DNA of 64,000 nucleotides, taken from Patescibacteria group bacterium. GTDB taxonomy: Bacteria; Patescibacteriota; Patescibacteriia; UBA1558; GWA2-36-10. Each line of letters starts with the position of its first letter. Position 1 is the first letter of the stretch. Positions 21,327 to 39,017 of the stretch are shown here, in pieces. The notes beneath the pieces were generated by a model that did not search any database, was not told the DNA's origin, and saw nothing but the letters and a program-made list of their open reading frames with translations. The translations under genes were made by a program, and so were the position numbers. The stretch is taken from positions 4,155 to 68,154 of the forward strand of contig JBAZSG010000006.1 of assembly GCA_041662585.1 (NCBI GenBank). Direction: 5' to 3'.

Positions 21327-22364
21327 ATGAGGTTGCTAATGATTACTAGAAAAGTAGATAGAGATGATGGCCTTGCTGGCTTTACTTACAATTGGATAAA
21401 AAAATTGTCTAGTAAAGTGGACGAGCTCTATGTAATGTGCCTAGAAAAAGGTAACGATAGAGACCTGCCAGACAATGTACATGTATATTCTTTGGGCAAA
21501 GAAAATGGCAAAAATAGATTTAAAGAATTTTTTAGATTTCATTATTTGGCTATCAAATTGGTACCAAAAGTAGATGGTATTTTTGCTCATCAAAATCCAG
21601 AATATGGAATACTTATTTCACCTTGGGCAAAGATTTTTAGGAAAAAATTAATAGCTTGGTATACTCACAAACAAGTTAGCCTAAGATTAAAGATATTAAA
21701 TTTGGTTTCTGATAAGATGGTAACAGCTTCTAAAGAAAGTTTTAGATTAGTTAGTAATAAATTACAAGTATTACATCACGGTATAGATACAGATGTTTTT
21801 TATTTTAAAGACAGAGTAGTTAAAGATACTTTAAATATTTTAAATATTAGTCGTATTTCTGCTACCAAGCGTATTGATAAGATGATTGATATAGTAGCTG
21901 AATTGAAAAAAATATTAGATAAAAAAGTTGTTTTTAAAATAGCTGGCGTACCTACTTTGGAAAAAGATAAATTATTTTTAGAAACTTTAAAAAATAAAGT
22001 AAAAGAATTCAATTTAGAATCAAATGTAGAGTTTTTGGGATCAGTACCCAATCATTTAACACCGGCATTGTATCAAGAAGCTGATTTATTTTTTAATTTT
22101 TCCCAGACAGGTAGTCTTGATAAGACAGGACTTGAAGCTATGAGTTGCGGTTGTTTGGTACTAGCTTCAAACGAGGCTTTTAAGGATATTTTAGAGCCTA
22201 TAAACTCATTATTTTATATAGCTAGTACTGAACAGGCTGTAGAAAATATTAAAAAGATTTTAGCCATTGATAATAATGATTTACGTTTAAAATTGCGCAA
22301 TTATGTCAAAGAAAATCATGATTTGGATAAATTAATTACTAAGATAGTAAAATTGTATGAGTAG
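21327..22364 (+). CDS. glycosyltransferase family 1
   Basis: 345 aa; 'GSLDKTGLEAMSCGCLVLASN' GT1 motif. Confidence 0.7.
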   Translation: MRLLMITRKVDRDDGLAGFTYNWIKKLSSKVDELYVMCLEKGNDRDLPDNVHVYSLGKENGKNRFKEFFRFHYLAIKLVPKVDGIFAHQNPEYGILISPWAKIFRKKLIAWYTHKQVSLRLKILNLVSDKMVTASKESFRLVSNKLQVLHHGIDTDVFYFKDRVVKDTLNILNISRISATKRIDKMIDIVAELKKILDKKVVFKIAGVPTLEKDKLFLETLKNKVKEFNLESNVEFLGSVPNHLTPALYQEADLFFNFSQTGSLDKTGLEAMSCGCLVLASNEAFKDILEPINSLFYIASTEQAVENIKKILAIDNNDLRLKLRNYVKENHDLDKLITKIVKLYE

Positions 22365-23004
22365 ACAAGTAGACAAAGAACATTACGATTTCTCTAAATA
22401 TTGTAATACCAGCAGATTCATTAGTTATTGGCATCAACTAGATGAGATTATTAAATTAAATCCGCAAAGTGTTTTGGAAGTAGGAGTTGGTGATAAGGTC
22501 GTGGCTAGTTATTTAAAAAATAATACGGATATTGTCTACACTTCTTTGGACATTGCAGAAGATTTGAAACCAGATATAGTAGGCGATATAGAAAAAATGG
22601 ATTTAGCGGACAACAGCTTTGATATTATTTGTGCTTTTGAGGTATTGGAGCATTTACAATTTGATGATTTTGATAAAACACTTAGAGAATTATCTAGAGT
22701 TTCAAAAAATTATGTAGTGCTTAGTTTGCCACATTGGGGCAGACATTTTTCTATAGAAATAAGATTACCATTTTTGGGTAAAATAAAATGGCAATATAAA
22801 TTTAATTTTTTACCAATTAAACATAAATTTAATGGACAACACTATTGGGAGATTGGTAAAGCAGGATATTCTATAAATAAAATAAGAAGTAAAATCCAAG
22901 AGGCTGGTTTGAATATTGAGAAAGATTATGTCTCTTTTGGATCACCTTATCATCATTTTTTCATTTTAAAGAAAAAAATAAATGTGTGGAATAAATGGAT
23001 TTAA
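22357..23004 (+). CDS. class I SAM-dependent methyltransferase
   Basis: 215 aa; motif I 'VLEVGVGDKVVASYL' and 'DIICAFEVLEHL' (Methyltransf_11-like). Confidence 0.7.
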   Translation: MSRQVDKEHYDFSKYCNTSRFISYWHQLDEIIKLNPQSVLEVGVGDKVVASYLKNNTDIVYTSLDIAEDLKPDIVGDIEKMDLADNSFDIICAFEVLEHLQFDDFDKTLRELSRVSKNYVVLSLPHWGRHFSIEIRLPFLGKIKWQYKFNFLPIKHKFNGQHYWEIGKAGYSINKIRSKIQEAGLNIEKDYVSFGSPYHHFFILKKKINVWNKWI

Positions 23005-24829
23005 TTTTAGGGATGAAAATCTGATCAAGCAGATGAACAACAAAATCAAACATCGAGGTCCTGATGATTTGGGTGTTTTTTTGGATGATATTTTTTCTTT
23101 GGGGCATGTTAGATTATCTATTATTGATTTGTCCCAGCGTGGGCATCAGCCTATGTTTAGTAGCGATAAAAATTATATTATTATCTATAATGGTGAGCTG
23201 TACAATTTTGAAAAAATAAAAAAAGATTTAAAATCAAAGGGATTTAAGTTTACTTCAAATACAGATACGGAGGTAATTTTAAATTCTTATATTGCTTATG
23301 GGGAAAAATGTTTAGATAAGTTTAATGGTATATTTTCATTTGCTATCTTCGACAAAAAAAAGAAGAAGCTTTTTGCAGCTCGTGACCATTTTGGAGTGAA
23401 ACCATTTTTTTATTATTTCAAAGATAATAAATTTATTTTTTCATCAGAGATAAAAAGTATTTTAGAACACAATGTTGATAAAAGTTTAGATTTTGATTCT
23501 CTTAATTTATATTTTAGGTTTTTGTATATTGCTGGTCCTAGAACTATTTTTAAAAATATAAAAAAATTACAAGCTAGTCATTATTTGATTTTGCAAAATA
23601 ATAAATTGGAAATTAAAAGGTATTATCGTGTACCACAAGAAAAAAAAGATTTTTCTTTTCCTGAAGCCAAAGAAATCATCAGAACAAATTTTGACAAGGC
23701 CGTGGAAAGACAACTGATATCAGATAGACCATTGGGGCTGTATTTGAGCGGAGGTATTGATTCAACAGCTATATTGGGCTCAATGTCAAAGCTTGTCAAT
23801 CATAAAATAAAGACTTTTACAGTAAAATTTGATACTAAGATAGAAGAAGATAAATTTAATATTGATAGTCAGTTGGCTAAAAAAACTAGCGATTATTATA
23901 AAACAGATCATTATGAATTATTGGTAAAACCAAAAGAAGTAGCAGAAAATTTGGAAAAGGTAATTTATCATATGGATGACTTAGTTTCTAATCATACTCA
24001 AACAGCTACTTATTTATTATCTAAATTAGCCAAAGGACAAGTGGCTGTAGTTTTGGGGGGTGATGGAGGAGATGAAATATTTGGTGGTTATGAAAGGCAC
24101 TATTATTATAATTTGATAGATAAATTTCAAAAAATACCAAAAATAATTAGAGACAATTATATAAACAAATCTTTGTCCAATGCTTTTGGTAGGCAAGATA
24201 TTTATAATAAGTTAAATACAAAAAATGAATTTGATTTATTTTGGCAATTTAGAGCTCAAAAAGAAAAAATGGTAAAAAGATTTTTGAAATCAGATATTAT
24301 CAATTTGGATAATACAAAACAAATTTTAAAAACTCAATATTTTTCTAAAAACTCAAAAAGCTATATGGATTATTTGATGATGGTAGATTTGGATACTTGG
24401 TTGGTAGATGAGTCACTTACTAGATCAGATAAACTCACTATGGCTTTTGGTCTTGAAGAGCGAGTGCCAATTCTTGATAAAGACTTGGTTGAGACAGCTT
24501 TTGCTATACAATCTAGCTATAAGATAAGAAATAAATATCAAGGTAAATATATTTTTAAAGAAGCAGTAAAAGATTATTTACCAGATTATATTTATGACAA
24601 ATCAAAGACAGGTTGGTTTTCTCCAGCGGCCAAGTGGCTTCGTACAGATCTCAAAGATTTGGCTTATCAGACATTAGCCAATGATTATAATCCAGACACT
24701 AGTGAATTTTTTGATTTTGATGAAATCAGAAAAATATTGGACAATCATATAGATAAAAAAGAGTATGCTTTAAATACCATATGGTCATTGATAACTTTTC
24801 AGATTTGGTATAAACTTTTTAAACAATAA
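22982..24829 (+). CDS. asparagine synthase (glutamine-hydrolysing)-family amidotransferase (AsnB-like)
   Basis: 615 aa; starts 'MCGI' (Ntn-amidotransferase Cys2); 'DLSQRGHQPM'; PP-loop 'LYLSGGIDSTAI'. Confidence 0.8.
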   Translation: MCGINGFNFRDENLIKQMNNKIKHRGPDDLGVFLDDIFSLGHVRLSIIDLSQRGHQPMFSSDKNYIIIYNGELYNFEKIKKDLKSKGFKFTSNTDTEVILNSYIAYGEKCLDKFNGIFSFAIFDKKKKKLFAARDHFGVKPFFYYFKDNKFIFSSEIKSILEHNVDKSLDFDSLNLYFRFLYIAGPRTIFKNIKKLQASHYLILQNNKLEIKRYYRVPQEKKDFSFPEAKEIIRTNFDKAVERQLISDRPLGLYLSGGIDSTAILGSMSKLVNHKIKTFTVKFDTKIEEDKFNIDSQLAKKTSDYYKTDHYELLVKPKEVAENLEKVIYHMDDLVSNHTQTATYLLSKLAKGQVAVVLGGDGGDEIFGGYERHYYYNLIDKFQKIPKIIRDNYINKSLSNAFGRQDIYNKLNTKNEFDLFWQFRAQKEKMVKRFLKSDIINLDNTKQILKTQYFSKNSKSYMDYLMMVDLDTWLVDESLTRSDKLTMAFGLEERVPILDKDLVETAFAIQSSYKIRNKYQGKYIFKEAVKDYLPDYIYDKSKTGWFSPAAKWLRTDLKDLAYQTLANDYNPDTSEFFDFDEIRKILDNHIDKKEYALNTIWSLITFQIWYKLFKQ

Positions 24830-24830
24830 T

Positions 24831-25520
24831 ATGAACTTAGAAACAATAAAAATCAATAAAACATTGATAAAAGATATATTTATAGAATCTTGGCGAGGCA
24901 AGACTATTGATAGAATTTTTTTAAATTCTTCTTTGCGTAGTATTGAATTGAGTGGTGATATTTTAGACTTGGGCTCTGGATCCAAAAAAAACAGCTATCA
25001 TCGTTTTATAAAATACAAAAAACCATACACTATAAAATTTACAGACTTATACAAAAATACAGATGATCCAGACATTATAAAGCTTGATTTGGAAACAAGC
25101 TTTACTATTGCAGATGCTAGTTTTGAGGCTATTACTTGTTTTAATGTTTTAGAACATATTTATAATCATCAAAGTCTAGTCAATGAATCATCTAGAGTTT
25201 TGAAAAATAATGGATTATTTGTTGGTAGTGTTCCATTTTTGGTAAATTATCACGGAGATCCAAATGATTATTGGCGTTATACTTGGCAATCTTTAGAAAA
25301 TATTTTTGTTAAAGCTAATATGTCTTCAGAAAAAATAATAGTTTTAGCCACAGGACCATTGATGGCCAGTTTTTTACAAATAGAATTTATGATACCAAAA
25401 TTTATAAAACCATTTTTTATTTTATGGGACTTATATTTAGATAGTATACTAGTAAAATGGAAGAAATTTTTAAAACATAAACATGTTTTGGGGTATTTAT
25501 TTGTTTTTAAAAAGAATTAA
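24831..25520 (+). CDS. class I SAM-dependent methyltransferase
   Basis: 229 aa; 'ILDLGSGSKKNS' motif I and 'FNVLEHI'. Confidence 0.6.
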   Translation: MNLETIKINKTLIKDIFIESWRGKTIDRIFLNSSLRSIELSGDILDLGSGSKKNSYHRFIKYKKPYTIKFTDLYKNTDDPDIIKLDLETSFTIADASFEAITCFNVLEHIYNHQSLVNESSRVLKNNGLFVGSVPFLVNYHGDPNDYWRYTWQSLENIFVKANMSSEKIIVLATGPLMASFLQIEFMIPKFIKPFFILWDLYLDSILVKWKKFLKHKHVLGYLFVFKKN

Positions 25521-25523
25521 TTT

Positions 25524-26615
25524 ATGAAATTATATTATATAATTTATGAGGATTTTATAAAGGAAAGAGCTAGTAATGTACAAATATCTAACACTACTAA
25601 TTTTCTAAATAGCCCTGGTATTGATGTAAATTTAATCTTTCCTTATAAGTTTGAAATGCCTGATAGATATAAAATAAAATCTAATATTATTTTCTTGTTT
25701 AATAAAACTTTTTCTAAGTTTAATAAATTAAATATTTTAAAATTTAGTTTAAAATTATTTTCTTATTTAAGAAAAGTTGATTCTGATTCAATTGTTTATT
25801 TTAGGCATGTTGTTTTATTACCGGTTATTTTGTTAGTTAAACTATTTTTACCAAAATTAAAAATAGTTTATGAAATACACAGAGAGGTTAATGATAGTTT
25901 TGGTAAATATTGTGAAAAAAAATTGATAAAAAAAGGAATTAAATTAATTACTATTTCTGATTCTTTGAAACAATCTTATCAGCAACAATATGGAGTTAAA
26001 GAAAATAAAATTCAAGTAGTGCATGATGCAGTAGATTTAGAAACTTTTGATATAAATATTAATCAGTTTGAAGCTAGAAAAAAGGCTCATGTAGAGGAAA
26101 AGGCAACTGTTATGTATATTGGTAGTTTATGGACTGTAAAAGGTGTTGATATTTTGTTAGGAGCAGCTAAAAAGTTGCCAGAGTACAATTTTTATTTTGT
26201 TGGCAAAGAACATGCTGATTTTGTTGATTTGAGAAAAGAGTTTGAGAATTTGTCTAATGTTTTTATAAAAGGAATGGTACCTCATCAAGAAGTGCCAGTT
26301 TTGCAAAAAGCTGCTGATTTATTGGTTATTCCTCATCCTAAAAATAATTTATCTCAATCGCCAATGAAACTATTTGAGTATTTGGCTAGTAATACACCAA
26401 TTCTTTCTGTTGATTTAGATAATATTAGAGAAATTTTGCCAGGTAACAGTTTATTTTTTGAACCAGAAAATCTTGATGATGTAGTGGTTAAGATTAAAGA
26501 TTACTTTACTCATCAGGCAGATTATATAAATAAAGCTAAGAATAATATAGAAATTGCTAGAAAATATTCTTGGCAGAATAGATCTAAATTAATTAAAGAT
26601 TTTATAAATAATTAA
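25524..26615 (+). CDS. glycosyltransferase family 1
   Basis: 363 aa; 'TVMYIGSLWTVKGVDILLGAAKKL' and 'SPMKLFEYLASNTPILS' GT1-like. Confidence 0.6.
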   Translation: MKLYYIIYEDFIKERASNVQISNTTNFLNSPGIDVNLIFPYKFEMPDRYKIKSNIIFLFNKTFSKFNKLNILKFSLKLFSYLRKVDSDSIVYFRHVVLLPVILLVKLFLPKLKIVYEIHREVNDSFGKYCEKKLIKKGIKLITISDSLKQSYQQQYGVKENKIQVVHDAVDLETFDININQFEARKKAHVEEKATVMYIGSLWTVKGVDILLGAAKKLPEYNFYFVGKEHADFVDLRKEFENLSNVFIKGMVPHQEVPVLQKAADLLVIPHPKNNLSQSPMKLFEYLASNTPILSVDLDNIREILPGNSLFFEPENLDDVVVKIKDYFTHQADYINKAKNNIEIARKYSWQNRSKLIKDFINN

Positions 26616-26616
26616 T

Positions 26617-27645
26617 ATGAAGTTTGTTTGCCCTAAAGATCATAATAGTTTGATTAAAGATGATACAAAGTATTATTGTGAAAAATGTAATACGAATTAT
26701 CCAATTATTAATAATATTCCTAGATTTACGGAGGTTAATTTTTATTGGGGAGAAATTCCAGAGTCCAATATGGACAAAATGTTGACTATTATAAAAGACA
26801 AGGGTTATCACGCTGGATTAGACTATTTAGAAGAAAATTTTCCAGGTCGTTCTAAATTTGTCTTTAATATTAGTAGGTCTGATTGGCATTTTGCTGTAGA
26901 TATTAAACCAGGTATGAAAATTTTAGATTTAGGTTGCGGTTGGGGCACCCATTCTTTTCCTTTGGCTGATTTGGGGGCTGAAGTTTATGCTGTAGATATT
27001 ACTAAACAGCGAGTAGAATTTGTAGAAGCTAGAAAAAAAATTGAAAATAAAGAAAACATTTATCCTTTGGTTGGTAATGTAATGGAACTACCTTTTGAGA
27101 ATGAAAGTTTTGATTTAATTATTAGTAATGGAGTATTAGAATGGGTTGGCTTGCAAGAACAGTATGGTAAGCCACGAGAAGTACAGGAAAAATTTTTAAA
27201 ATTGATGCGAGGATTATTAAAAAAAGATGGAATTTTGTATGTTGGTATTGAAAATAGATTTGCTCTATCTTATTTTGCAAAAGGTATTGATCATTCAGGA
27301 CTTCGTTATACTAGTTTGATGCCTCGTTTTTTAGCTAATACATATACTCAAAGTAAATTAAAAAAACCTTATTTAACCTATACCTATACTTATAATGGTT
27401 ATAAAAAATTATTTAATAAAATTGGTTTTAATAAAATAGATACATATATTCCTTTTTCAGGATATAATAATCCAAATTCTCTTGTACCATATAAGTCATC
27501 AGAGGCTTTACAATTTTTTATGTTAACTAGAGGTAAATTTAATAATATAAAATTAAAATTATTAAAATATATTTTGTTTAATAGATTATTTTTAAAGTTG
27601 TATAGATTTTTTAGTTTTAGTTTTGATTTTTATTTAAAAAAATAG
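26617..27645 (+). CDS. SAM-dependent methyltransferase with N-terminal Trm112-like zinc-ribbon
   Basis: 342 aa; 'FVCPKDHNSL..YYCEKCNTNYPIINNIPRF' then motif I 'ILDLGCGWGTHSFPLADLGAEVYAVDI'. Confidence 0.65.
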   Translation: MKFVCPKDHNSLIKDDTKYYCEKCNTNYPIINNIPRFTEVNFYWGEIPESNMDKMLTIIKDKGYHAGLDYLEENFPGRSKFVFNISRSDWHFAVDIKPGMKILDLGCGWGTHSFPLADLGAEVYAVDITKQRVEFVEARKKIENKENIYPLVGNVMELPFENESFDLIISNGVLEWVGLQEQYGKPREVQEKFLKLMRGLLKKDGILYVGIENRFALSYFAKGIDHSGLRYTSLMPRFLANTYTQSKLKKPYLTYTYTYNGYKKLFNKIGFNKIDTYIPFSGYNNPNSLVPYKSSEALQFFMLTRGKFNNIKLKLLKYILFNRLFLKLYRFFSFSFDFYLKK

Positions 27646-33088: not shown

Positions 33089-33100
33089 GTTTATTAATTT

Positions 33101-33198: not shown

Positions 33199-34560
33199 TT
33201 ATCGCCCCAAACTCTTATTAAACACAGTATTGATAGTTTTTAAGATTATAGAAATATCTAGAGCTACAGATTGATTTTTGATATAAAACAAATCATATTG
33301 TAGTTTTTCTTTAGCATCAGCTACGCTAGCACCATATGGAAAATTTATTTGAGCCCAACCAGTAAGTCCTGGTTTGACTAGATGTCTTTCATTATAAAAT
33401 GGTATAGCCTCTTTGAGGGTGCTTACAAATTCTGGTCTTTCAGGGCGAGGACCAACAAAACTCATATTACCTTTGATGATATTTATAAATTGAGGTATTT
33501 CATCTATCCTAGTTTTACGGATAAATTTGCCAACTTTTGTAACTCGTGAGTCATTTTCTTTGGCCCACTGAGCACCATTGGTTTCGGCATTTTTGGTCAT
33601 AGAGCGCAATTTGTAAACAGTAAATATTTTGTTGTGCAGGCCAACTCTTTCTTGTTTATAGATAATAGAACCAGCTGATTCAAGCTTTATGGCCAAGATT
33701 ATAAAAGGAAGTATCAACAGAGAAATAAGACCAAAAAATACAGAAAGCACTATATCCATAATTCTTTTGAAAAAAGATGACCAATGTTGATTTTTTTGAC
33801 TAATATTTTCCAAAAACCAGTGACGCTCCAAGGAAGAGACGGGTACCTTGCCAGTAATTTTTTCATAAAAGTCAGTAAGATTAAAATATTGTATTTTAAG
33901 ATCTATGTTTTCAAATAAATAGCGAGCTACCTCTGGACTATATTTTGGGTCATTGACAGCTACTACAGTATTGATTTTGAGCTCTAGTATTTTATTTCTC
34001 ATTTCGCTGATATCTTTACTGACAGCGACTATTTGAAATTTTTCAGGGATAACAGATGAATCGGGGTTGATAATTAGTTTTAGTTTATAACCCAAGTGAG
34101 GCTTGGTAATTATTTCTTCAGCTAGTAGTAGTGATTCAGAATGGATGCCAATAATAGCTAGATTACTGCCTAGTCTATCGCTAGATATGAGTTTGTAAAA
34201 TATTTTTCGCCAAAGGATAAACAAAATAGCAAAAATACCAACCAGTATCAGCAGTATGGTTTGTGGCCTGATGCCAAGAATATTGCCAACTAAATAAAAG
34301 AAAGACATGGCCAAGACAGTATTGATGAGCAAATTTTGCACCAAGCTACCATAAAATTTAAAGCCTTGTTGGACTTTGTTTATTTCGTATAAACCATTGA
34401 TAAAAAATATTATTATCCACAAGGCAAAAATAATTGAAAAAGGGCCCAAATGCTTGGACCATAGTAGGCTATCAATATAAGAAAAACGTAACCACAAGGT
34501 GATGGCTAAAGAACTATATAGTAATATCAGGTCTCCAAATAATAATATTATCTTTCTCAT
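33199..34560 (-). CDS. polyprenyl glycosylphosphotransferase (bacterial sugar transferase, WbaP/PssY-like initiating enzyme)
   Basis: 453 aa; N-terminal TM segments; 'KRIMDIVLSVFFGLISLLILPFI', 'YKLRSM', 'DEIPQFINIIKGNMSFVGPRP'. Confidence 0.8.
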   Translation of the reverse strand: MRKIILLFGDLILLYSSLAITLWLRFSYIDSLLWSKHLGPFSIIFALWIIIFFINGLYEINKVQQGFKFYGSLVQNLLINTVLAMSFFYLVGNILGIRPQTILLILVGIFAILFILWRKIFYKLISSDRLGSNLAIIGIHSESLLLAEEIITKPHLGYKLKLIINPDSSVIPEKFQIVAVSKDISEMRNKILELKINTVVAVNDPKYSPEVARYLFENIDLKIQYFNLTDFYEKITGKVPVSSLERHWFLENISQKNQHWSSFFKRIMDIVLSVFFGLISLLILPFIILAIKLESAGSIIYKQERVGLHNKIFTVYKLRSMTKNAETNGAQWAKENDSRVTKVGKFIRKTRIDEIPQFINIIKGNMSFVGPRPERPEFVSTLKEAIPFYNERHLVKPGLTGWAQINFPYGASVADAKEKLQYDLFYIKNQSVALDISIILKTINTVFNKSLGR

Positions 34561-34850: not shown

Positions 34851-35798
34851 ATGAAAATATCAATTGTTTTACCAATTTATAATGAAGAAGAAAATGTAAA
34901 TATTCTTTATAATAAATTGACAGAAGTTTTAAAAAGAATTGGAGTAGAGTATGAGATACTTTGTGTTAATGATGGATCAAAAGATAAAAGTTTTGATATT
35001 TTAAAGAACATTGCAGAGCACGACAAAAAAGTTAAGGTAATCAATTTTAAAAATAATTTTGGCCAAACTGCCGCTATGTCAGCTGGCATCAAAGCTTCTC
35101 AAGGAGATTTAATAATACCAATGGATGCTGATTTGCAAAATGATCCAGAAGATATACCAAGATTTTTAGAAAAGATTAATGAAGGTTTTGATGTGGTATC
35201 AGGTTGGCGTAAAGATAGGAAAGATGCTTTGGTTTTAAGAAAAATACCTTCTTGGGTTGCAAATTGGATTATCGGAAAGATTACAGGTGTTAAAATTCAT
35301 GATTATGGGTGTTCAATGAAAGCTTATAAAAGAGAAATTATAAAAGATGTAAATCTATATGGAGAAATGCATCGTTTTATTCCAGCTTATGCTTCTTGGC
35401 AAGGAGCTGTAGTGACAGAGATGGTAGTTACACATCATCCACGTATTCACGGTGTGACTAAATATGGAATTGGCAGAACTTTTAAAGTAATTTTGGATTT
35501 AATAGTGGTAAAGTTTTTATCAGTCTATATCAATAGACCAATCCATTTTTTTGGGGGTATTGGTTTTGTATCATTATTTTTAGGAATTATCACTGGCTTG
35601 ACAGCTTTAACGCTTAGAATTTTAGAGATAAAATATATTGTAGAAACTCCCTTACCTATTCTTTCAGCTTTATTAATAATAGTCGGAGTTCAACTCATAG
35701 CTATGGGTATATTAGCAGAAATGATTATGAGAACTTATTATGAGTCACAACATAAAGAACCTTATGTTATAAAAGATAAAATTAATTTTGATAACTAA
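34851..35798 (+). CDS. glycosyltransferase family 2, polyprenyl-phosphate glycosyltransferase (GtrB/ArnC/DPM1-like)
   Basis: 315 aa; 'KISIVLPIYNEEENV', 'CVNDGSKD', 'DADLQNDPEDI', two C-terminal TM helices. Confidence 0.8.
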   Translation: MKISIVLPIYNEEENVNILYNKLTEVLKRIGVEYEILCVNDGSKDKSFDILKNIAEHDKKVKVINFKNNFGQTAAMSAGIKASQGDLIIPMDADLQNDPEDIPRFLEKINEGFDVVSGWRKDRKDALVLRKIPSWVANWIIGKITGVKIHDYGCSMKAYKREIIKDVNLYGEMHRFIPAYASWQGAVVTEMVVTHHPRIHGVTKYGIGRTFKVILDLIVVKFLSVYINRPIHFFGGIGFVSLFLGIITGLTALTLRILEIKYIVETPLPILSALLIIVGVQLIAMGILAEMIMRTYYESQHKEPYVIKDKINFDN

Positions 35799-37663
35799 TG
35801 TGTGGAATTACTGGTTATCTTGGTAAAGGTAATCAAGATATATTAGAGAAAATGACAAATAGTCTTTATCACAGAGGTCCTGATGATAAAGGTTTTTTAT
35901 TGGAAGAAAATTTGGGTATGGGACATCGTCGTTTATCAATTATTGATTTGAGTGATTCAGGACGGCAGCCAATGACTAACGAAGATGGATCAATTATAAT
36001 AGTTTTAAATGGTGAGATCTATAATTATCAAGAATTAAAAGAACAATTAAAAAATCAACATAAATTTAAGAGTCAAACTGATACGGAAGTTATTATTCAT
36101 CTTTATGAAGAGATTGGCACAGAAGTTTTTTCTAAATTAAATGGAATGTTTGCGATTGCTTTGTATGACAAGAAAAGAAAAAAAATAATATTATCTAGAG
36201 ATAGATTTGGTAAAAAACCACTATATTGGGGAATTTTTAATGAAACATTTTTGTTCTCTTCAGAGTTAAAGTCATTTTTAAATCATCCGTCTTTTAAAAA
36301 AGAATTAAATATAGAGGCTCTTAATAAATATTTACAATATGAGTATGTGCCGACACCGCATGCGATTTTTAAAGGAGTATATAAATTAGAGCCAGGATAT
36401 TACTTAGAATATGATTCTAAAAATATAAAAAAGGAAAAATTTTGGGATATTCATTTTGAAAAATCTGACCTTACTTTTAATGAGTCTTTAGAAAAGTTAG
36501 ATTATGAAATGAATAGAGCAACAAAAATTAGAATGATGAGTGATGTGCCTTTGGGGGTATTTTTAAGTGGAGGTATAGATAGTAGTATTATTGCTTATTA
36601 CGCACAAAAAAATAGTCAGCAAAAAATAAAAACTTTTTCTATTGGTTTTAAAGAAAAAAGTTTTGATGAATCAAATTATGCTCGTCAGGTAGCTAGATAT
36701 TTAGGCACCGAACATCATGAACAAATTTTAAGTGCCAAAGATTCTCTAGATTTTATTCCAAAAATTGCAGATTTGTTGGATGAACCAATGTCTGATTCAT
36801 CTATTGTACCAACTTATTTATTATCTAAATTTACCAAAGAACATGTTACAGTTGCTTTGGGTGGAGATGGTGGGGATGAATTATTGTTGGGTTATGATAC
36901 TTTCGTAGCCCAGCGCTATGCAGATATATATGACAAGGTACCGTTTTTTATTCGTCAATTGATAACTAAGACAGTTACAAGTTTGCCAACATCTTTTTCT
37001 AATATGTCTTTAGATTTTAAAATAAAAAAATTTACCAAAGATTTTGAAGATAATAAAAATTACAGACATCAACGTTGGTTAGGTTCTTTTGACAAACAGA
37101 GTCGTAGTAATTTATTTACAAATAATATTTGGCAAGATTTGAAAAATAAAAATGAATTTAACGATGTTGATAACTATTTAGATAGTATATCCAAATTAGA
37201 TAAATATCAGAAATTAATTTATTTATATTTAAGAACTTACATGTTAGACGATATTTTAGTAAAAGTAGATAGAGCTAGCATGTTTAATGCACTGGAAGTT
37301 AGGGCGCCGTTTTTGGACTATCAAGTAGCAGATTTAATTAATTCTATGCCAATTAATTTTAAATTAAAAGGAACTAAAACAAAATATATACTTAAAAAAT
37401 TAATGGATGGCAAGCTGCCTCAAAATATTATTTATCGTAAAAAGAAAGGTTTTGGTATGCCAATAGCTGATTGGTTGAATAATGATTTAAAATCATTAGC
37501 ACAAGAACTATTAAATTCTGAAAGAATAAAAAGAGAGGGCTTATTTGATTATAAATATGTAGAGAGGTTATTAGAAGGACATTTTGATCACAAACAAGAT
37601 AATCGTAAATTAATTTGGACTCTTATGGTATTTGAAATGTGGCGTGAAAAATGGTTTAATTAA
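35798..37663 (+). CDS. second asparagine synthase (glutamine-hydrolysing)-family amidotransferase
   Basis: 621 aa; 'MCGITGY', 'DLSDSGRQPM', PP-loop 'VFLSGGIDSSII'. Confidence 0.8.
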   Translation: MCGITGYLGKGNQDILEKMTNSLYHRGPDDKGFLLEENLGMGHRRLSIIDLSDSGRQPMTNEDGSIIIVLNGEIYNYQELKEQLKNQHKFKSQTDTEVIIHLYEEIGTEVFSKLNGMFAIALYDKKRKKIILSRDRFGKKPLYWGIFNETFLFSSELKSFLNHPSFKKELNIEALNKYLQYEYVPTPHAIFKGVYKLEPGYYLEYDSKNIKKEKFWDIHFEKSDLTFNESLEKLDYEMNRATKIRMMSDVPLGVFLSGGIDSSIIAYYAQKNSQQKIKTFSIGFKEKSFDESNYARQVARYLGTEHHEQILSAKDSLDFIPKIADLLDEPMSDSSIVPTYLLSKFTKEHVTVALGGDGGDELLLGYDTFVAQRYADIYDKVPFFIRQLITKTVTSLPTSFSNMSLDFKIKKFTKDFEDNKNYRHQRWLGSFDKQSRSNLFTNNIWQDLKNKNEFNDVDNYLDSISKLDKYQKLIYLYLRTYMLDDILVKVDRASMFNALEVRAPFLDYQVADLINSMPINFKLKGTKTKYILKKLMDGKLPQNIIYRKKKGFGMPIADWLNNDLKSLAQELLNSERIKREGLFDYKYVERLLEGHFDHKQDNRKLIWTLMVFEMWREKWFN

Positions 37664-37678
37664 GTATATTATAGATAT

Positions 37679-38251
37679 ATGGAAGAAAAAAAATTGAATT
37701 TGGGAGCTGGTGAAGATAGTAAAGATGGTTATATAAGTATAGATTGGAATGAATTGACTAAACCAGATGTAGTACATGATTTGAATAAATTGCCTTATCC
37801 TTTTGAGGATAATTATTTTGATGAAATATTAGCTTCTCATATATTAGAGCATTTAGATAAACCATTTGAGGTTATGAAAGAGTTGCACAGAATATTAAAG
37901 CCAAGTGGTAAATTGATAATTAAAGTGCCACATTTTAGTAGAGGTTTCACTCATACAGAACATGCTCATGGCTTTGATATATCTTTTCCTATGTATTTTA
38001 ATAAAGATTTTACTAAGTCAGGTTTTTATGGTGTAGAGTTTAAACTTAAAAAACTTAAATTACATTGGGCTGCTTTTACTCATTTGTTACCTTATTATGG
38101 GTATGGAAAAATAGCTATAAGGTTTATAAAATTATTAAGTTTTATGTTGTCTAGTTTGGCAAATATTAGCCCTAATTTGTGTAGTCGCATATGGTGTTTT
38201 TGGGTAGGGGGATTTGAAGAAATAGAATTTGAATTTATTTGTAAGAAATAA
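37679..38251 (+). CDS. class I SAM-dependent methyltransferase (Methyltransf_11-like)
   Basis: 190 aa; 'LNLGAGEDSKDGYISID', 'FDEILASHILEHL'. Confidence 0.55.
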   Translation: MEEKKLNLGAGEDSKDGYISIDWNELTKPDVVHDLNKLPYPFEDNYFDEILASHILEHLDKPFEVMKELHRILKPSGKLIIKVPHFSRGFTHTEHAHGFDISFPMYFNKDFTKSGFYGVEFKLKKLKLHWAAFTHLLPYYGYGKIAIRFIKLLSFMLSSLANISPNLCSRIWCFWVGGFEEIEFEFICKK

Positions 38252-39017
38252 TATGTCATCAAGTGAACGTTTTGGTTATGAATGGGATAAATATTCGGGT
38301 ATCGATTCTAACTATGAAAAACAATTTAAAAATTGGATATATCCTCTTGAATCAGAGTTTTTTAAAGACAAAGTGATTTTAGATGCGGGCTGTGGTATGG
38401 GTAGAAATAGTTTTTGGCCACTCCAATGGGGAGCAAGAGAAGTTGTAGCCTTTGATTTTGATAGACGTTCGGTTGAATCAGCTAAGAGAAATTTAGAACA
38501 TTTTAATAATGTAGAAGTTTTTTATAAAAGTATTTATGATATTACTTGGGTGGATAAATTTGATATAGCTTTTAGTATTGGTGTGATACATCATTTGAAA
38601 GATCCAAAACAAGCTTTGCAAAATATGATTAAAGCTTTAAAATCAGATGGCACGCTTTTGATTTGGGTTTATAGTTATGAAGGTAATGAATGGATAGTAA
38701 AATTAGTTGATCCCATTAGAAAAAATATTACTTCAAAATTACCAGTTGGCTTAGTGCATTTTTTAAGTTATTTATGTTCTATACCTTTATATATTTTTAT
38801 AAAAATGTTTAAAAATACAAATGGTTATTTAAAACAAATTTCTAATTTTAAATTTTGGCATGTACATAGTATAGTTTTTGATCAATTGATACCGGACATA
38901 GCTAATTATTGGAAAAAGACCGAAGTAGAAGAATTATTTTTAAATTTAGGTTTAAAATCAGTGGATATTCATCAACCGCCAAATAAATCTGGTTGGATAA
39001 TTATTGGAAAAAAATAA
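38229..39017 (+). CDS. class I SAM-dependent methyltransferase
   Basis: 262 aa; 'VILDAGCGMGRNSF' motif I, 'FDIAFSIGVIHHL'. Confidence 0.65.
   Translation: MNLFVRNNMSSSERFGYEWDKYSGIDSNYEKQFKNWIYPLESEFFKDKVILDAGCGMGRNSFWPLQWGAREVVAFDFDRRSVESAKRNLEHFNNVEVFYKSIYDITWVDKFDIAFSIGVIHHLKDPKQALQNMIKALKSDGTLLIWVYSYEGNEWIVKLVDPIRKNITSKLPVGLVHFLSYLCSIPLYIFIKMFKNTNGYLKQISNFKFWHVHSIVFDQLIPDIANYWKKTEVEELFLNLGLKSVDIHQPPNKSGWIIIGKK

What the first reader, a model, noticed from the sequence alone, without database searches (positions are those of the whole stretch)
22357..39017. Six SAM methyltransferases and two AsnB-like amidotransferases in one glycan locus: predicted heavily methylated, amidated uronic-acid glycan
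The window encodes MTases at 22357, 24831, 26617 (with a Trm112-like Zn-ribbon), 28498, 37679 and 38229. It encodes two full-length AsnB homologs with intact Ntn Cys (MCGI..) and PP-loops (SGGxDS). A UDP-sugar 6-dehydrogenase, a UDP-GlcA-4-epimerase-like enzyme and an acetyltransferase are also present.

AsnB-like enzymes in O-antigen loci, for example P. aeruginosa WbpS, are implicated in amidation of uronic-acid carboxylates. The dehydrogenase would supply the uronic acid.

The methyltransferase count is exceptional for a locus of this size. It suggests O-methylated sugars or non-sugar substituents.
Basis: partly seen in the sequence, partly recalled or inferred. Interest (0 to 1): 0.65.

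Follow-up and report, generated by a model that had tools for sequence, protein, structure and literature searches.

The report
Patescibacterial surface-glycan locus with amidation/methylation cassettes
The genes are real, but this is a fairly ordinary sugar-polymer locus from a tiny uncultured Patescibacteria (CPR) bacterium, built from a shared scaffold plus swappable cassettes of a WbpS-like amidotransferase and small methyltransferases; many methyltransferases are normal for this lineage, and the link to uronic acid is plausible but only partly supported.

Summary
There are six class-I SAM methyltransferases, two full-length AsnB-family amidotransferases (Ntn-Cys and PP-loop intact), a TviB-type sugar 6-dehydrogenase, a UDP-GlcA-4-epimerase-like SDR and a hexapeptide acetyltransferase, all at the stated coordinates.

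The window comes from a 702-kb Patescibacteria (CPR) MAG contig. The genes form a Wzx/Wzy-type locus (12452-39017) next to a chemosensory/type IV pilus cluster.

Both AsnBs fail NCBIfam's housekeeping AsnB cutoff. They resemble an AsnB-like gene in the E. coli O65 O-antigen cluster (41% and 34% identity) more than E. coli AsnB (27-29%, N-terminal part only). In every Patescibacterial locus examined, their orthologues sit among glycosyltransferases.

The locus is modular. A relative with AsnB1 alone lacks the dehydrogenase, epimerase and AsnB2. GT2-AsnB2-MT5 is a highly conserved cassette that sits next to a GT-C enzyme in several relatives.

The dehydrogenase accompanies these AsnBs only in some relatives, so "amidated uronic acid" is plausible but unproven, especially for AsnB1. 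Four to nine methyltransferases per locus is typical of this lineage.

Verdict: a new member of a known kind, of moderate-to-low interest.

The parts
11763..12449 (+). TPR protein, first gene of the Wzy_C-TPR operon
   Evidence: Pfam TPR_2/TPR_11, weak
12452..14737 (+). Wzy_C (O-antigen ligase/polymerase family) membrane protein with a C-terminal TPR domain, paralogue 1
   Evidence: Pfam Wzy_C 6e-19. 29% identical to paralogue 2. Orthologue in L002 at 57%.
14738..17176 (+). Wzy_C + TPR membrane protein, paralogue 2
   Evidence: Pfam Wzy_C 2e-20 plus TPR. Only the TPR part matches PDB entries. Orthologue in L091 at 54%.
17185..17226 (.). Perfect 20-bp inverted repeat with U-tracts on both sides: a bidirectional terminator closing the Wzy_C operon
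   Evidence: I25
17764..18966 (-). GT4 glycosyltransferase (GT4a)
   Evidence: Pfam Glycos_transf_1 2e-32. Syntenic in L002, L091 and L125.
19055..20167 (+). GT4 glycosyltransferase (GT4b), first gene of the 10.5-kb plus-strand operon
   Evidence: Pfam. Promoter-like site at 18975-19003.
20167..21324 (+). GT4 glycosyltransferase (GT4c)
   Evidence: Pfam Glycos_transf_1 4e-31
21327..22364 (+). GT4-type glycosyltransferase (GT4d), always just upstream of the AsnB1 module
   Evidence: Pfam. Synteny in L002, L091, L093 and L125.
22357..23004 (+). MT1, class I SAM methyltransferase; overlaps AsnB1 by 23 nt
   Evidence: Pfam Methyltransf_11 5e-12. Orthologue in L002 at 61%.
22982..24829 (+). AsnB1, glutamine-dependent AsnB-family amidotransferase (615 aa)
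   Evidence: Pfam and NCBIfam. Catalytic residues invariant in orthologues. 34% identical to the E. coli O65 cluster AsnB-like protein, versus 27% to K-12 AsnB.
24831..25520 (+). MT2, SAM methyltransferase with a C-terminal hydrophobic segment, directly after AsnB1
   Evidence: Pfam. Hydropathy 1.66 at residues 170-188. A methyltransferase follows AsnB1 in L002, L003, L085-L087 and L089.
25524..26615 (+). GT4 glycosyltransferase (GT4e)
   Evidence: Pfam
26617..27645 (+). MT3, SAM methyltransferase with an N-terminal Cys/His-rich mini-domain
   Evidence: Pfam Methyltransf_11 1.5e-18. Trm112p only E=0.06.
27648..28493 (+). Kin, lineage-restricted APH-fold (sugar-hydroxyl-type) kinase
   Evidence: HGDxQDNN and IDWD are invariant. 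AF2 pLDDT 80.6. Foldseek best match APH(2'')-Ia, E 3e-7. Only 9 homologues found in 5.8 billion proteins.
28498..29142 (+). MT4, SAM methyltransferase
   Evidence: Pfam Methyltransf_11 5e-24
29147..29617 (+). Hexapeptide-repeat O-acetyltransferase (WcaF/Maa-like)
29614..30870 (-). Wzx-type flippase
   Evidence: Pfam Polysacc_synt 6e-20
30860..32074 (-). Nucleotide-sugar 6-dehydrogenase of the TviB/WbpO clade (accessory: absent from L002)
   Evidence: Orthologues in L125 (84%) and L010 (71% over the part on the contig).
32078..33127 (-). UDP-(HexNAc)uronate 4-epimerase-like SDR (accessory)
   Evidence: The SSSSVYG and YAASK motifs are read.
33199..34560 (-). Large polyprenyl-phosphate hexose-1-P transferase (priming enzyme)
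   Evidence: Bac_transf 1e-66. TIGR03025 scores 371.5, above the 295.6 cutoff.
34851..35798 (+). GtrB/ArnC/PgfS-like GT2 polyprenyl-phosphate glycosyltransferase with two C-terminal TM helices; its stop overlaps the AsnB2 start
   Evidence: Conserved at 53-86% next to AsnB2 in L091, L125-L128 and L130.
35798..37663 (+). AsnB2, WbpS-like glutamine-dependent amidotransferase (621 aa)
   Evidence: Best NCBIfam family TIGR03108 at 582 bits, below the 817 cutoff. 41% identity / 472 bits to the E. coli O65 cluster AsnB-like protein.
37679..38251 (+). MT5, compact SAM methyltransferase with a C-terminal hydrophobic segment; co-conserved with AsnB2
   Evidence: Pfam. 64-75% identity directly downstream of AsnB2 in L091, L127, L128 and L129, and one gene further (after a radical-SAM gene) in L130. 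Hydropathy.
38253..39017 (+). MT6, SAM methyltransferase (Methyltransf_9/11-like) with a predicted C-terminal TM helix
   Evidence: Pfam. Gene-caller start. Orthologues in L125 (79%) and L091 (68%). Hydropathy 1.88.

Best explanation
Windows 12452-39017 encode a Wzx/Wzy-type cell-surface glycan pathway of a Patescibacteria (CPR) bacterium. It is built from a conserved scaffold plus exchangeable decoration cassettes.

Scaffold:
- A large phosphoglycosyl transferase primes undecaprenyl phosphate.
- Five GT4 enzymes extend the repeat on the cytoplasmic face.
- Wzx flips it.
- One or both Wzy_C-TPR proteins polymerise it and/or transfer it to an acceptor. There is no lipid A-core in this lineage, so the acceptor is a protein, pilin or wall polymer (inferred).

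Decorations:
1. Two deeply diverged WbpS-like AsnB-family amidotransferases use glutamine-derived ammonia and ATP (acyl-adenylate chemistry) to turn sugar carboxylates into primary amides. The carboxylates are most plausibly HexNAc- or hexuronic acids made by the TviB-type dehydrogenase and the 4-epimerase.
2. Small SAM methyltransferases directly follow each AsnB (MT2; MT5 and MT6). Each carries a C-terminal hydrophobic segment and probably works on the membrane-bound lipid-linked intermediate.
3. An MT3-kinase-MT4-acetyltransferase block adds methyl, phosphate (possibly methyl-phosphate) and O-acetyl groups.
4. GT2-AsnB2-MT5(-MT6) is a self-contained, highly conserved cassette. The GtrB/ArnC-like GT2 loads a sugar on undecaprenyl phosphate, for later transfer outside the membrane by a GT-C enzyme. 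The GT-C lies next to the cassette in relatives but is not in this window.

Shown: gene content, family assignments, intact catalytic motifs, synteny and cassette structure.
Inferred: the substrates, the order of steps, the stage (nucleotide-sugar or lipid-linked) at which amidation and methylation occur, and the final acceptor.
For: Gene content and family assignments.

Organism: proteins 100% identical to AsnB1, AsnB2 and Kin are named Patescibacteria group bacterium, on a 702-kb contig.

The AsnBs are not E. coli-type housekeeping AsnB:
- NF006949 scores 308 and 334, against a cutoff of 499.
- Alignment to E. coli AsnB covers only about the first 360 residues plus a short C-terminal stretch (158-163 bits). 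The E. coli O65 O-antigen-cluster AsnB-like protein aligns end to end (472 and 301 bits). It shares the inter-domain insertion, the ~70-100-residue insertion after the GDGGDE motif, and the IWxLxxFExW C-terminus.
- The best solved relative is the non-asparagine enzyme 7YLZ, a hydroxyamidotransferase.

The WbpS/WbqG/PGN_1234 family (eps_aminotran_1) makes uronamides in vivo. AsnB2's top family is that one.

Context: every Patescibacterial AsnB1- or AsnB2-type locus with readable flanks is embedded among GT and MT genes (L002, L003, L005, L085, L087-L093, L125-L130). By contrast, 18 more distant AsnB homologues (L100-L117) found in the same scan have no such neighbours.

Modularity:
- L002 = scaffold + AsnB1 module + MT3-Kin-MT4-AcT, without dehydrogenase, epimerase or the AsnB2 cassette.
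- L125 = scaffold + AsnB2 cassette + dehydrogenase/epimerase, without AsnB1.
- L091 has the AsnB2 cassette inserted right after AsnB1.

Cassette conservation: GT2 53-86%, AsnB2 58-76% and MT5 64-75% identity. In the more distant loci (L126-L130), where AsnB2 stays at 58-60% and MT5 at 64-71%, the GT4 genes fall to 25-38%.

GT-C (PMT_2), GtrA or large unannotated membrane proteins lie next to the cassette in L125, L127, L128 and L130.

TviB-type dehydrogenase and epimerase lie next to an AsnB2-like gene in L037, L039, L024 and L125.

Hydrophobic C-termini occur only in MT2, MT5 and MT6. Kinase fold and invariant catalytic loop.
Against: - No biochemical or glycan-composition data exist for any Patescibacterial member.
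- Both AsnBs score below the curated cutoff of the WbpS family model (438 and 582 against 817).
- The dehydrogenase is absent within 10 kb of the AsnB gene in L002, L003 and L126-L130. It is present in only 11 of 80 cross-phylum AsnB-like loci. A locus-encoded uronic-acid supply is therefore not a general partner. The E. coli O65 cluster shows that a dedicated dehydrogenase need not be inside the cluster: ugd lies just outside it.
- AsnB1 is the most conserved gene of its locus (45-51% identity where neighbours are 25-40%). That could also fit a more central metabolic role.
- No GT-C partner for GT2 was found in the window.
- The roles of the Wzy_C-TPR proteins are untested.
Confidence: 0.6

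Rival explanations
1. One or both AsnB homologues (AsnB1 especially) are the organism's working asparagine synthetase. They merely sit in, or are co-transcribed with, the glycan operon. The glycan is then methylated and acetylated but not amidated.
For: - Both pass the generic TIGR01536 'asparagine synthase (glutamine-hydrolyzing)' cutoff (467 and 504 against 267), and all sources name them so.
- The glutaminase and PP-loop residues are intact.
- AsnB1 is much more conserved than its neighbours across Patescibacteria, as expected for a core function in an auxotrophic, genome-reduced organism.
- Several relatives lack a nearby dehydrogenase.
- From established knowledge: long-form AsnBs of Gram-positive bacteria can make asparagine.
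Against: - There are two paralogues only 35% identical, each translationally coupled to GT or MT genes.
- GT/MT context is invariant in all Patescibacterial loci examined.
- Both are below the cutoff of the AsnB equivalog model.
- The region that holds the aspartate-binding residues of E. coli AsnB is replaced by a ~70-100-residue insertion, shared with an O-antigen-cluster enzyme.
- Either AsnB can be absent from otherwise syntenic loci (L002 lacks AsnB2, L125 lacks AsnB1). However, I examined no locus that lacks both.
Confidence: 0.13
2. The AsnB-like enzymes amidate a non-sugar carboxylate of the envelope. One candidate is meso-diaminopimelate or D-Glu of peptidoglycan precursors (as for LtsA / Lactobacillus AsnB1 / B. 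subtilis AsnB). Another is a carboxyl on an amino-acid or lactyl/pyruvyl substituent. In that case the dehydrogenase is irrelevant to them.
For: - The AsnB family is known to act on many carboxylates. The best solved relative, 7YLZ, is a hydroxyamidotransferase for a polyketide acid.
- Peptidoglycan-amidating AsnB homologues are of the same long form (established knowledge, not tested here).
- AsnB1 occurs without a dehydrogenase in L002 and L003.
Against: - No mur/PG-precursor genes lie next to either AsnB in any locus. The neighbours are always GT4, GT2 and MT genes.
- AsnB2 is closest to the glycan type (TIGR03108; E. coli O65 cluster protein).
- No pyruvyl- or lactyl-transferase or amino-acid ligase genes were seen in the window.
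Confidence: 0.08
3. Same enzymology, different product. The locus is a general protein O-glycosylation system. The Wzy_C-TPR proteins act as PglL/TfpO-like oligosaccharyltransferases that put a short, heavily modified oligosaccharide on pilins or surface proteins, rather than polymerising a polysaccharide.
For: - The locus is flanked by, and syntenic with, an MCP-CheW-CheA-response regulator plus PilB/PilC/pilin/PilM cluster in the window, L002 and L125.
- PglL/TfpO enzymes belong to the Wzy_C family (established knowledge).
- CPR bacteria lack lipid A-core, so a WaaL role is impossible.
- No chain-length regulator (Wzz/PCP) or LCP ligase was detected in the window.
Against: - There are two Wzy_C paralogues, and one could be a true polymerase.
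- No similarity to solved PglL/WaaL structures was detectable by sequence; only the TPR part matched.
- Adjacency to pilus genes may be coincidental in a 0.7-Mb genome.
Confidence: 0.3

Closest known systems
WbpS (P. aeruginosa O6) / WbqG (E. coli O121) / PGN_1234 (P. gingivalis) / H. pullorum WbpS: uronamide-forming AsnB-family amidotransferases (NCBIfam TIGR03108 eps_aminotran_1)
   Same: - Full-length Ntn-Cys glutaminase plus PP-loop synthetase.
- Located inside glycan loci.
- Co-occur here with a WbpO/TviB-type dehydrogenase and a 4-epimerase, as in the WbpO-WbpP-WbpS logic.
- AsnB2's best family model is TIGR03108.
   Different: - Scores are below the curated cutoff (582 and 438 against 817).
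- No XrtA/PEP-CTERM context.
- The organism is a CPR monoderm without LPS.
- Each AsnB is coupled to small methyltransferases, and AsnB2 to a GtrB-like GT2.
- The dehydrogenase is not conserved with them in relatives.
AsnB-like gene of the E. coli O65 O-antigen gene cluster (NZ_CP010191.1, locus L131:8142-10031)
   Same: - End-to-end alignment with AsnB2 (41% identity, 472 bits) and AsnB1 (34%, 301 bits).
- Shares the DGGDE motif, both insertions and the C-terminal motif.
- Sits between glycosyltransferase genes in a Wzx/Wzy cluster.
   Different: - The E. coli cluster has no methyltransferases and no GtrB-like GT2.
- Its function is itself only inferred. From memory, the O65 antigen contains a uronamide; I could not verify this here.
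E. coli asparagine synthetase B (PDB 1CT9; NF006949)
   Same: Same two-domain fold and the same catalytic Cys1, R49, N74, E76, D98 and PP-loop equivalents.
   Different: - Only 27-29% identity, and only over the first ~360 residues.
- E348 is replaced by Asp in GDGGDE.
- The segment carrying K376/D384 is replaced by a long insertion, and the C-terminus differs.
- Below the model cutoff.
GtrA/GtrB/GtrC, ArnC/ArnD/ArnE-F/ArnT and PgfS/PgfM-type three-component systems (polyprenyl-P sugar made inside, modified, flipped, transferred outside by a GT-C)
   Same: - The GT2 at 34851 matches ArnC (211 bits) and PgfS (180 bits) and has two C-terminal TM helices.
- Relatives carry GtrA and PMT_2-type GT-C genes next to the cassette.
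- A modifying enzyme sits between the GT2 and the transfer step, as with ArnD.
   Different: - Scores are below the equivalog cutoffs.
- No GT-C was found in this window.
- Action of an AsnB-type amidotransferase on a lipid-linked sugar has, to my knowledge, no precedent, and is an inference from gene order.
WbdD of E. coli O9a (methyltransferase + kinase that caps a glycan with methyl-phosphate); AglP of Haloferax volcanii (methyl ester of a hexuronic acid). Both recalled from memory.
   Same: A SAM methyltransferase adjacent to a eukaryotic-like/APH-fold kinase (MT3-Kin-MT4). Methyltransferases sit next to enzymes acting on uronic-acid carboxyls.
   Different: - Separate genes rather than one fusion protein.
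- Wzx-dependent rather than ABC-transporter pathway.
- No sequence match of Kin to any PDB chain; the best fold match is APH(2'')-Ia, not WbdD.
- No sequence comparison with AglP was possible.

Membership tests
Housekeeping asparagine synthetase B (NCBIfam NF006949 / E. coli AsnB type) | Whole-protein score above the curated equivalog cutoff (499 bits) | tested here: not met
   AsnB1 308.1 bits, AsnB2 333.6 bits
Housekeeping asparagine synthetase B (NCBIfam NF006949 / E. coli AsnB type) | Collinear synthetase domain including the aspartate-site segment (E348, K376, D384, R387 in E. coli numbering, recalled from the literature) | tested here: not met
   The alignment breaks after GDGGDE. E348 becomes D, and a ~70-100-residue insertion replaces the K376-D384 segment.
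Housekeeping asparagine synthetase B (NCBIfam NF006949 / E. coli AsnB type) | Makes asparagine / complements an Asn auxotroph; no other Asn route in the genome | not testable with these tools
   Only 64 kb of the 702-kb contig is readable. No wet-lab assay is possible.
AsnB superfamily, glutamine-hydrolysing (TIGR01536 asn_synth_AEB) | Score above the cutoff of 267.1; N-terminal Cys nucleophile; glutamine-binding R/N-G-E/D; SGGxDS PP-loop | tested here: met
   466.8 and 503.5 bits. C2, R44, N70-G-E72, D95 and S256GGxDS261 are invariant in 22 orthologues.
WbpS/WbqG-type glycan uronamide amidotransferase (TIGR03108 eps_aminotran_1) | Score above the curated cutoff of 816.9 | tested here: not met
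   AsnB2 581.8 (its best family), AsnB1 438.2
WbpS/WbqG-type glycan uronamide amidotransferase (TIGR03108 eps_aminotran_1) | Encoded within a glycan biosynthesis locus | tested here: met
   Window and all Patescibacterial orthologue loci examined
WbpS/WbqG-type glycan uronamide amidotransferase (TIGR03108 eps_aminotran_1) | Partnered with a UDP-HexNAc 6-dehydrogenase (WbpO/TviB type) and a 4-epimerase that supply the uronic acid | tested here: inconclusive
   Present in the window, L125, L010, L024, L037 and L039. Absent within 10 kb in L002, L003 and L126-L130.
WbpS/WbqG-type glycan uronamide amidotransferase (TIGR03108 eps_aminotran_1) | Product glycan contains a uronamide that is lost on mutation | not testable with these tools
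   Shown only for P. gingivalis and H. pullorum homologues
WbpS/WbqG-type glycan uronamide amidotransferase (TIGR03108 eps_aminotran_1) | XrtA exosortase / PEP-CTERM context (the model's original definition) | tested here: not met
   No exosortase or PEP-CTERM protein among the Pfam/NCBIfam hits in the window
Class I SAM-dependent methyltransferases (Methyltransf_11 type) | Pfam score above gathering; motif I GxGxG-like loop; acidic residue after strand 2 | tested here: met
   All six are above the 21.2-bit cutoff. Motifs read.
Trm112-like zinc ribbon (PF03966) on MT3 | Pfam score above 22 bits; four zinc ligands | tested here: inconclusive
   13.7 bits, E=0.06. The pattern is C5-x3-H9 ... C21-x2-C24.
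Wzx/Wzy-dependent glycan assembly | Initiating phosphoglycosyl transferase, Wzx flippase and Wzy_C-type polymerase/ligase | tested here: met
   TIGR03025 371.5 (above 295.6), Polysacc_synt 6e-20, two Wzy_C proteins
Wzx/Wzy-dependent glycan assembly | Chain-length regulator (Wzz/PCP) or a defined ligase to the acceptor (WaaL / LCP) | tested here: not met
   None detected among the window ORFs scanned
UDP-glucose 6-dehydrogenase (Ugd) | Score above the Ugd equivalog cutoffs | tested here: not met
   30-116 bits against cutoffs of 670-757. TviB model 439 bits (cutoff 592). Generic NDP-sugar dehydrogenase 368 bits, above 189.8.
UDP-glucuronate 4-epimerase-like SDR | Epimerase-type S-x-Y-x3-K catalytic set, no TDE dehydratase motif, closest to characterised UDP-GlcA 4-epimerases | tested here: met
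   SSSSVYG and YAASK. PDB 5U4Q 371 bits and 6ZL6/6ZLA 170 bits rank above WbgU/WbpP at 144-159 bits. The identity of 6ZLA as the B. cereus UDP-GlcA 4-epimerase is from memory.
GtrB/ArnC-type polyprenyl-phosphate glycosyltransferase system | GT2 with C-terminal TM helices, plus a GT-C transferase and a small flippase | tested here: inconclusive
   GT2 is present with two TM helices, but below the ArnC and PgfS cutoffs. GT-C or GtrA are present only in relatives L125, L127, L128 and L130, not in the window.
WbdD-like kinase/methyltransferase chain terminator | Kinase and SAM methyltransferase acting together; ABC-transporter pathway; coiled-coil ruler | tested here: inconclusive
   An APH-fold kinase with an intact catalytic loop is flanked by MT3 and MT4. 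However, the pathway is Wzx-dependent, there is no sequence hit to WbdD, and a coiled coil was not examined.

The most novel reading that the evidence does not exclude
GT2-AsnB2-MT5 is a conserved cassette found in several Patescibacterial lineages. In this reading, an AsnB-type amidotransferase and a membrane-anchored methyltransferase act on a polyprenyl-phosphate-linked uronic acid, analogous to ArnD acting on Und-P-Ara4FN. The result is a charge-neutralised (amidated, methylated) sugar. A GT-C enzyme then transfers it outside the cell onto pilins, surface proteins or wall polymers, next to the type IV pilus/chemosensory machinery these episymbionts use to engage hosts. This would be a previously undescribed step in extracytoplasmic glycan decoration, and the first defined surface-glycan chemistry for CPR bacteria.
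Probability: 0.2. Interest if true: 0.6.

Novelty: new member of a known kind. Interest (0 to 1): 0.35.

Why it matters
Patescibacteria make up a large share of uncultured bacterial diversity. They live attached to other microbes, and almost nothing is known about their surface glycans; the papers I searched mention only an unspecified EPS.

A genome of roughly 0.7 Mb that spends about 27 kb on one glycan, with two amidotransferases and six methyltransferases, and keeps the AsnB-MT cassettes more conserved than the glycosyltransferases, suggests the decorations matter for host contact or for phage and immune evasion.

In practice, the result gives concrete, testable enzyme sets (GT2-AsnB2-MT5; MT3-Kin-MT4). 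It also warns that 'asparagine synthase' annotations in CPR genomes should not be counted as amino-acid biosynthesis.

Tried and rejected
1. Near-identical DNA in plasmids: none.
2. Trm112 domain on MT3: not significant by Pfam.
3. A strict dehydrogenase-AsnB2 linkage, suggested by the window, L125 and L002: rejected. L010 pairs the dehydrogenase orthologue with an AsnB1-type gene only, and L126-L130 have AsnB2 without the dehydrogenase. The 'DH' of L127 is a distant fragment at 31 bits.
4. Recent duplication or gene conversion of the two asnB genes: rejected. They are 35% identical at protein level, and the only shared DNA is an 86-nt stretch (79% identity) over the active-site motif.
5. Repeats flanking the cassettes as insertion scars: none found.
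6. Kin as a WbdD homologue: no sequence hit to any PDB chain. The fold search gives generic APH(2'')/APH(3') kinases with modest TM-scores of ~0.45-0.5, so only 'sugar-type kinase fold' is claimed.
7. Looking for WbqG (E. coli O121) by DNA similarity found the O65-cluster gene instead. WbpS, WbtH, LtsA and B. subtilis AsnB sequences could not be obtained, so no proper phylogeny was made.
8. Membrane part of the Wzy_C-TPR proteins against solved structures: only the TPR part matches.
9. Rfam and tRNA scans of the window: only tRNA-Thr and tRNA-Trp at 62.4-62.8 kb, nothing in the locus.
It returned mostly distant cross-phylum AsnB-like loci, which were used as a background sample rather than as orthologues.

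Full report
**What is there**

The region is densely packed with intact ORFs. Pfam and NCBIfam scans give four transcription units.

- Plus-strand operon: TPR protein (11763), Wzy_C-TPR 1 (12452) and Wzy_C-TPR 2 (14738). It is closed by a perfect 20-bp hairpin at 17185-17226.
- A divergent GT4 gene (17764, minus strand).
- A 10.5-kb plus-strand operon of tightly abutting or overlapping genes: GT4b, GT4c, GT4d, MT1, AsnB1, MT2, GT4e, MT3, a kinase-like gene (Kin), MT4 and a hexapeptide acetyltransferase (19055-29617).
- A convergent minus-strand operon: priming phosphoglycosyl transferase, SDR epimerase, sugar 6-dehydrogenase and Wzx (34560 down to 29614).
- A divergent plus-strand operon: GT2, AsnB2, MT5 and MT6 (34851-39017).

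All six methyltransferases pass the Pfam gathering score and show motif I. They are only distantly related to one another.

Both AsnB homologues are full length, with the N-terminal Cys and SGGIDS. In 22 AsnB1 orthologues the glutaminase triad residues and the PP-loop are invariant.

The only weak element is the 'Trm112-like Zn ribbon' of MT3. The Cys/His pattern is there, but Pfam gives E=0.06.

**Where it comes from**

AsnB1, AsnB2 and Kin are 100% identical to proteins that NCBI names 'Patescibacteria group bacterium'. They lie on a 702,058-bp metagenomic contig.

GC is 26-33% across the locus.

The rest of the window fits this origin. Directly downstream lie MCP, CheW, CheA, a response regulator, PilB (with an MshEN domain), PilC, several pilin-like proteins and PilM (39159-52331). 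Then come a MacB/HlyD transporter, hrcA-grpE-hsp20-dnaK-dnaJ and two tRNAs.

From established knowledge, CPR bacteria are monoderm-like and lack LPS. This glycan therefore cannot be an O-antigen in the strict sense.

**Are the AsnB homologues asparagine synthetases?**

By NCBIfam, both pass only the generic TIGR01536 model. Both fail the E. coli-type AsnB equivalog (308 and 334 bits against a cutoff of 499).

AsnB2's best family is TIGR03108 (582 bits, cutoff 817). According to PMC7468200, this family contains WbpS and WbqG.

The best solved relative of both is 7YLZ, a hydroxyamidotransferase acting on a non-amino-acid carboxylate. It ranks ahead of E. coli AsnB 1CT9.

I retrieved E. coli K-12 AsnB and, by a DNA search, an AsnB-like gene inside the E. 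coli O65 O-antigen cluster. That gene lies between two glycosyltransferase genes, next to wzx and wzy.

| Comparison | Identity | Bits | Extent |
|---|---|---|---|
| AsnB2 vs O65-cluster protein | 41% | 472 | end to end |
| AsnB1 vs O65-cluster protein | 34% | 301 | end to end |
| AsnB1 / AsnB2 vs K-12 AsnB | 27-29% | 158-163 | first ~360 residues plus a short C-terminal piece |

The three glycan-locus proteins share four features that E. coli AsnB lacks:
- an insertion between the two domains;
- DGGDE in place of GEGSDE;
- a 70-100-residue insertion where E. coli AsnB carries its aspartate-site segment;
- a common C-terminal motif.

Mutants of WbpS-family genes in P. gingivalis and H. pullorum lose the uronamide or accumulate the acid form.

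The chemistry 'carboxylate to primary amide on a glycan building block' is thus well founded by homology and context, though not demonstrated here.

**Comparative context**

I collected orthologous loci by exact-protein look-ups and collection scans. I annotated them with the window's proteins as queries.

Four results matter.

*1. Context is always glycan-related.* Every Patescibacterial AsnB1-type or AsnB2-type locus with readable flanks is embedded among GT4, GT2 and MT genes. By contrast, 18 more distant AsnB homologues picked up by the same scan (L100-L117) have no such neighbours. The method can therefore see 'lonely' asnB genes.

*2. The locus is modular.*
- L002 (AsnB1 69% identical) reproduces the scaffold gene for gene: Wzy_C-TPR, GT4a-d, AsnB1, MT2, MT1, GT4e, MT3, Kin, MT4, AcT, Wzx, PGT, then MCP-CheW-CheA. 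It has neither dehydrogenase and epimerase nor GT2-AsnB2-MT5-MT6, and it adds a B12-radical-SAM gene.
- L125 (AsnB2 76%) has the scaffold, a PMT_2-type GT-C, GT2-AsnB2-MT6, and Wzx-DH-Epi-PGT, but no AsnB1.
- L091 has GT2-AsnB2-MT5-MT6 inserted immediately after AsnB1.

*3. GT2-AsnB2-MT5 is a co-conserved trio.* In distant Patescibacteria (L127-L130), AsnB2 stays at 58-60%, MT5 at 64-71% and GT2 (where present) at 53-66% identity. GT4 genes fall to 25-38%. The trio is accompanied by GtrA, PMT_2-type GT-C or large unannotated membrane proteins. AsnB1 is likewise the most conserved gene of its module (45-51% identity, against 25-44% for neighbours). A small methyltransferase almost always follows it.

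*4. The dehydrogenase is not a constant partner.* Its orthologue occurs in L125 (with AsnB2 only) and L010 (with an AsnB1-type gene only). It is absent within 10 kb in L002, L003 and L126-L130. In a cross-phylum sample of 80 AsnB-like loci, 41 have GT4 genes but only 11 have any dehydrogenase of this family. Even so, the arrangement TviB-type dehydrogenase, epimerase, AsnB2-like gene recurs in unrelated lineages: L037 Firmicutes, L039 and L024 Patescibacteria. This mirrors the WbpO-WbpP-WbpS logic.

**The dehydrogenase and epimerase**

The dehydrogenase scores 439 bits on the TviB (UDP-GlcNAc 6-dehydrogenase) model. It scores 181-204 on UDP-ManNAc dehydrogenases and 30-116 on UDP-glucose dehydrogenases. 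Its PDB relatives are UDP-ManNAc and NDP-GalNAcA dehydrogenases. The acid is therefore more likely an N-acetylhexosaminuronic acid than GlcA.

The SDR has an epimerase-type active site (SSSSVYG, YAASK). It is closest to 5U4Q and to the 6ZL6/6ZLA series, which I recall as the B. cereus UDP-GlcA 4-epimerase. WbgU and WbpP rank lower.

**The methyltransferases**

Six in one locus is high against the cross-phylum background. There, 49 of 80 loci have none within 10 kb, and the maximum is 5.

Within Patescibacteria it is ordinary. By the precomputed Pfam labels, methyltransferase counts per ~22 kb are as follows:

| Locus | Methyltransferases | Other methylase-type genes |
|---|---|---|
| L002 | 4 | 1 B12-rSAM |
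| L003 | 4 | 3 rSAM |
| L125 | 4 | - |
| L126 | 6 | - |
| L127 | 6 | - |
| L128 | 4 | - |
| L129 | 8-9 | - |
| L130 | 1 | 2 B12-rSAM |

'Exceptional' is thus not supported for this lineage.

Two further observations refine their roles.
- Only MT2, MT5 and MT6 have a C-terminal hydrophobic segment. These are the methyltransferases directly downstream of the AsnBs. This suggests action at the membrane on lipid-linked intermediates.
- MT3 and MT4 flank Kin. Kin belongs to a very narrow family: 9 homologues in 5.8 billion proteins. Its HGDxQDNN catalytic loop and IDWD metal site are invariant. Its AlphaFold model (pLDDT 80.6) matches aminoglycoside (sugar-hydroxyl) phosphotransferases. A phosphate or methyl-phosphate substituent is therefore possible, reminiscent of WbdD. 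This resemblance is from memory and was not confirmed by sequence.

**Mechanism proposed**

1. The PGT primes Und-P.
2. GT4 enzymes build the repeat.
3. UDP-HexNAcA or GalA, from the dehydrogenase and epimerase where present, is incorporated.
4. AsnB1 and AsnB2 adenylate a sugar carboxylate and amidate it with glutamine-derived ammonia.
5. Neighbouring membrane-associated methyltransferases methylate the same or adjacent residues.
6. Kin, MT3/MT4 and the acetyltransferase add further groups.
7. Wzx flips the unit.
8. The Wzy_C-TPR proteins polymerise and/or transfer it.

The GT2-AsnB2-MT5 cassette may instead act through a Und-P-monosaccharide that a GT-C adds outside the membrane.

Steps 1, 2 and 7 follow standard family roles. 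The substrates, the stage of amidation and methylation, and the acceptor are all inferred.

**Rivals**

- Housekeeping asparagine synthesis (0.13).
- Amidation of a non-sugar envelope carboxylate such as mDAP (0.08).
- For the product's destination: protein or pilin O-glycosylation rather than a polysaccharide (0.3; compatible with the main enzymology). This is suggested by conserved synteny with the chemosensory/T4P cluster and the absence of a Wzz or LCP gene.

**Novelty and verdict**

Glycan loci with WbpS-like amidotransferases and methyltransferases are known.

What is new is the lineage. I found no description of CPR surface-glycan loci in the searched literature. Also new are the cassette architecture and the strong conservation of the AsnB-MT pairs.

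I rate it a new member of a known kind, interest 0.35.

Noticed in passing
window 39159-52331: A chemosensory module (MCP, CheW, CheA, response regulator) is followed by PilB (with an N-terminal MshEN, c-di-GMP-binding-type domain), PilC, four N-methyl-motif pilin-like proteins (one with a Fib_succ_major domain, one with Laminin_G_3) and PilM. The MCP-CheW-CheA genes follow the glycan locus in the same order in L002 and L125, so glycan, Che and T4P form a conserved supercluster in this lineage.
   Followed up: partly
window 27648-28493: The kinase-like protein has only 9 homologues (E<=1e-5) among 5.8 billion clustered proteins and no sequence match in the PDB. Yet it folds confidently as an APH-type kinase with an invariant catalytic loop. 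It is always sandwiched between MT3 and MT4.
   Followed up: yes
window 5395-11623: An ECF-type sigma factor (5395-5976) and a DUF5667 protein (5992-7428) are followed by a 1255-aa ORF (7856-11623) with no Pfam or NCBIfam match. Its GC (0.39) is clearly higher than its surroundings (~0.30). It may be a large surface protein under dedicated sigma control.
   Followed up: no
window 17237-17689 (-) and 17720-17748: A 150-aa coiled-coil-like ORF contains three 21-nt tandem repeats (17447-17518). It is preceded by a perfect 12/12 sigma-70 consensus promoter and followed by the strong bidirectional terminator at 17185-17226. It is wedged between the Wzy_C operon and GT4a.
   Followed up: no
window 1061-2146: A Glycos_transf_4 (MraY/WecA family, PF00953) polyprenyl-phosphate HexNAc-1-P transferase lies 10 kb upstream of the locus. 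It could be MraY, or a second priming enzyme of the TagO/WecA type.
   Followed up: no
window 24008-24093 and 36812-36897: The only extended DNA similarity between the two asnB paralogues is an 86-nt stretch (79% identity). It encodes the TYLLSK...GGDGGDE...GY active-site segment. Otherwise they are diverged (35% protein identity).
   Followed up: yes
L129 14398-21878; L130 16913-21878: Related Patescibacterial loci carry GT10 and GT11 fucosyltransferase-family genes, a sulfotransferase, a DUF268 protein and a carbamoyltransferase next to the AsnB2-MT5 pair. This hints at fucosylated, sulfated or carbamoylated surface glycans in CPR bacteria.
   Followed up: no
L003 (CP179890.1, 423333-445183): A complete 675,639-bp Nealsonbacteria genome has an AsnB1-type gene followed by a methyltransferase and a GT. 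There are also two SPASM radical-SAM genes, a B12-radical-SAM gene, a polysaccharide deacetylase, a small multidrug-resistance-family (Multi_Drug_Res / TMEM234) membrane protein, a possible CDP-alcohol phosphatidyltransferase (faint Pfam hit) and a nucleotidyltransferase. No sugar dehydrogenase lies within 10 kb.
   Followed up: partly
window 34689-34847: The metagenome gene caller calls a 52-aa ORF in the 290-bp divergent promoter region between the priming transferase and GT2. Its reality and conservation were not examined.
   Followed up: no
L131 (E. coli M8, NZ_CP010191.1 3341651-3343540): The E. coli O65 O-antigen cluster contains a 629-aa gene annotated simply 'asnB: asparagine synthase (glutamine-hydrolyzing)'. 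It is only ~29% identical to the real AsnB and is clearly of the glycan-amidotransferase type. This is an example of the same annotation trap in a well-studied species.
   Followed up: partly
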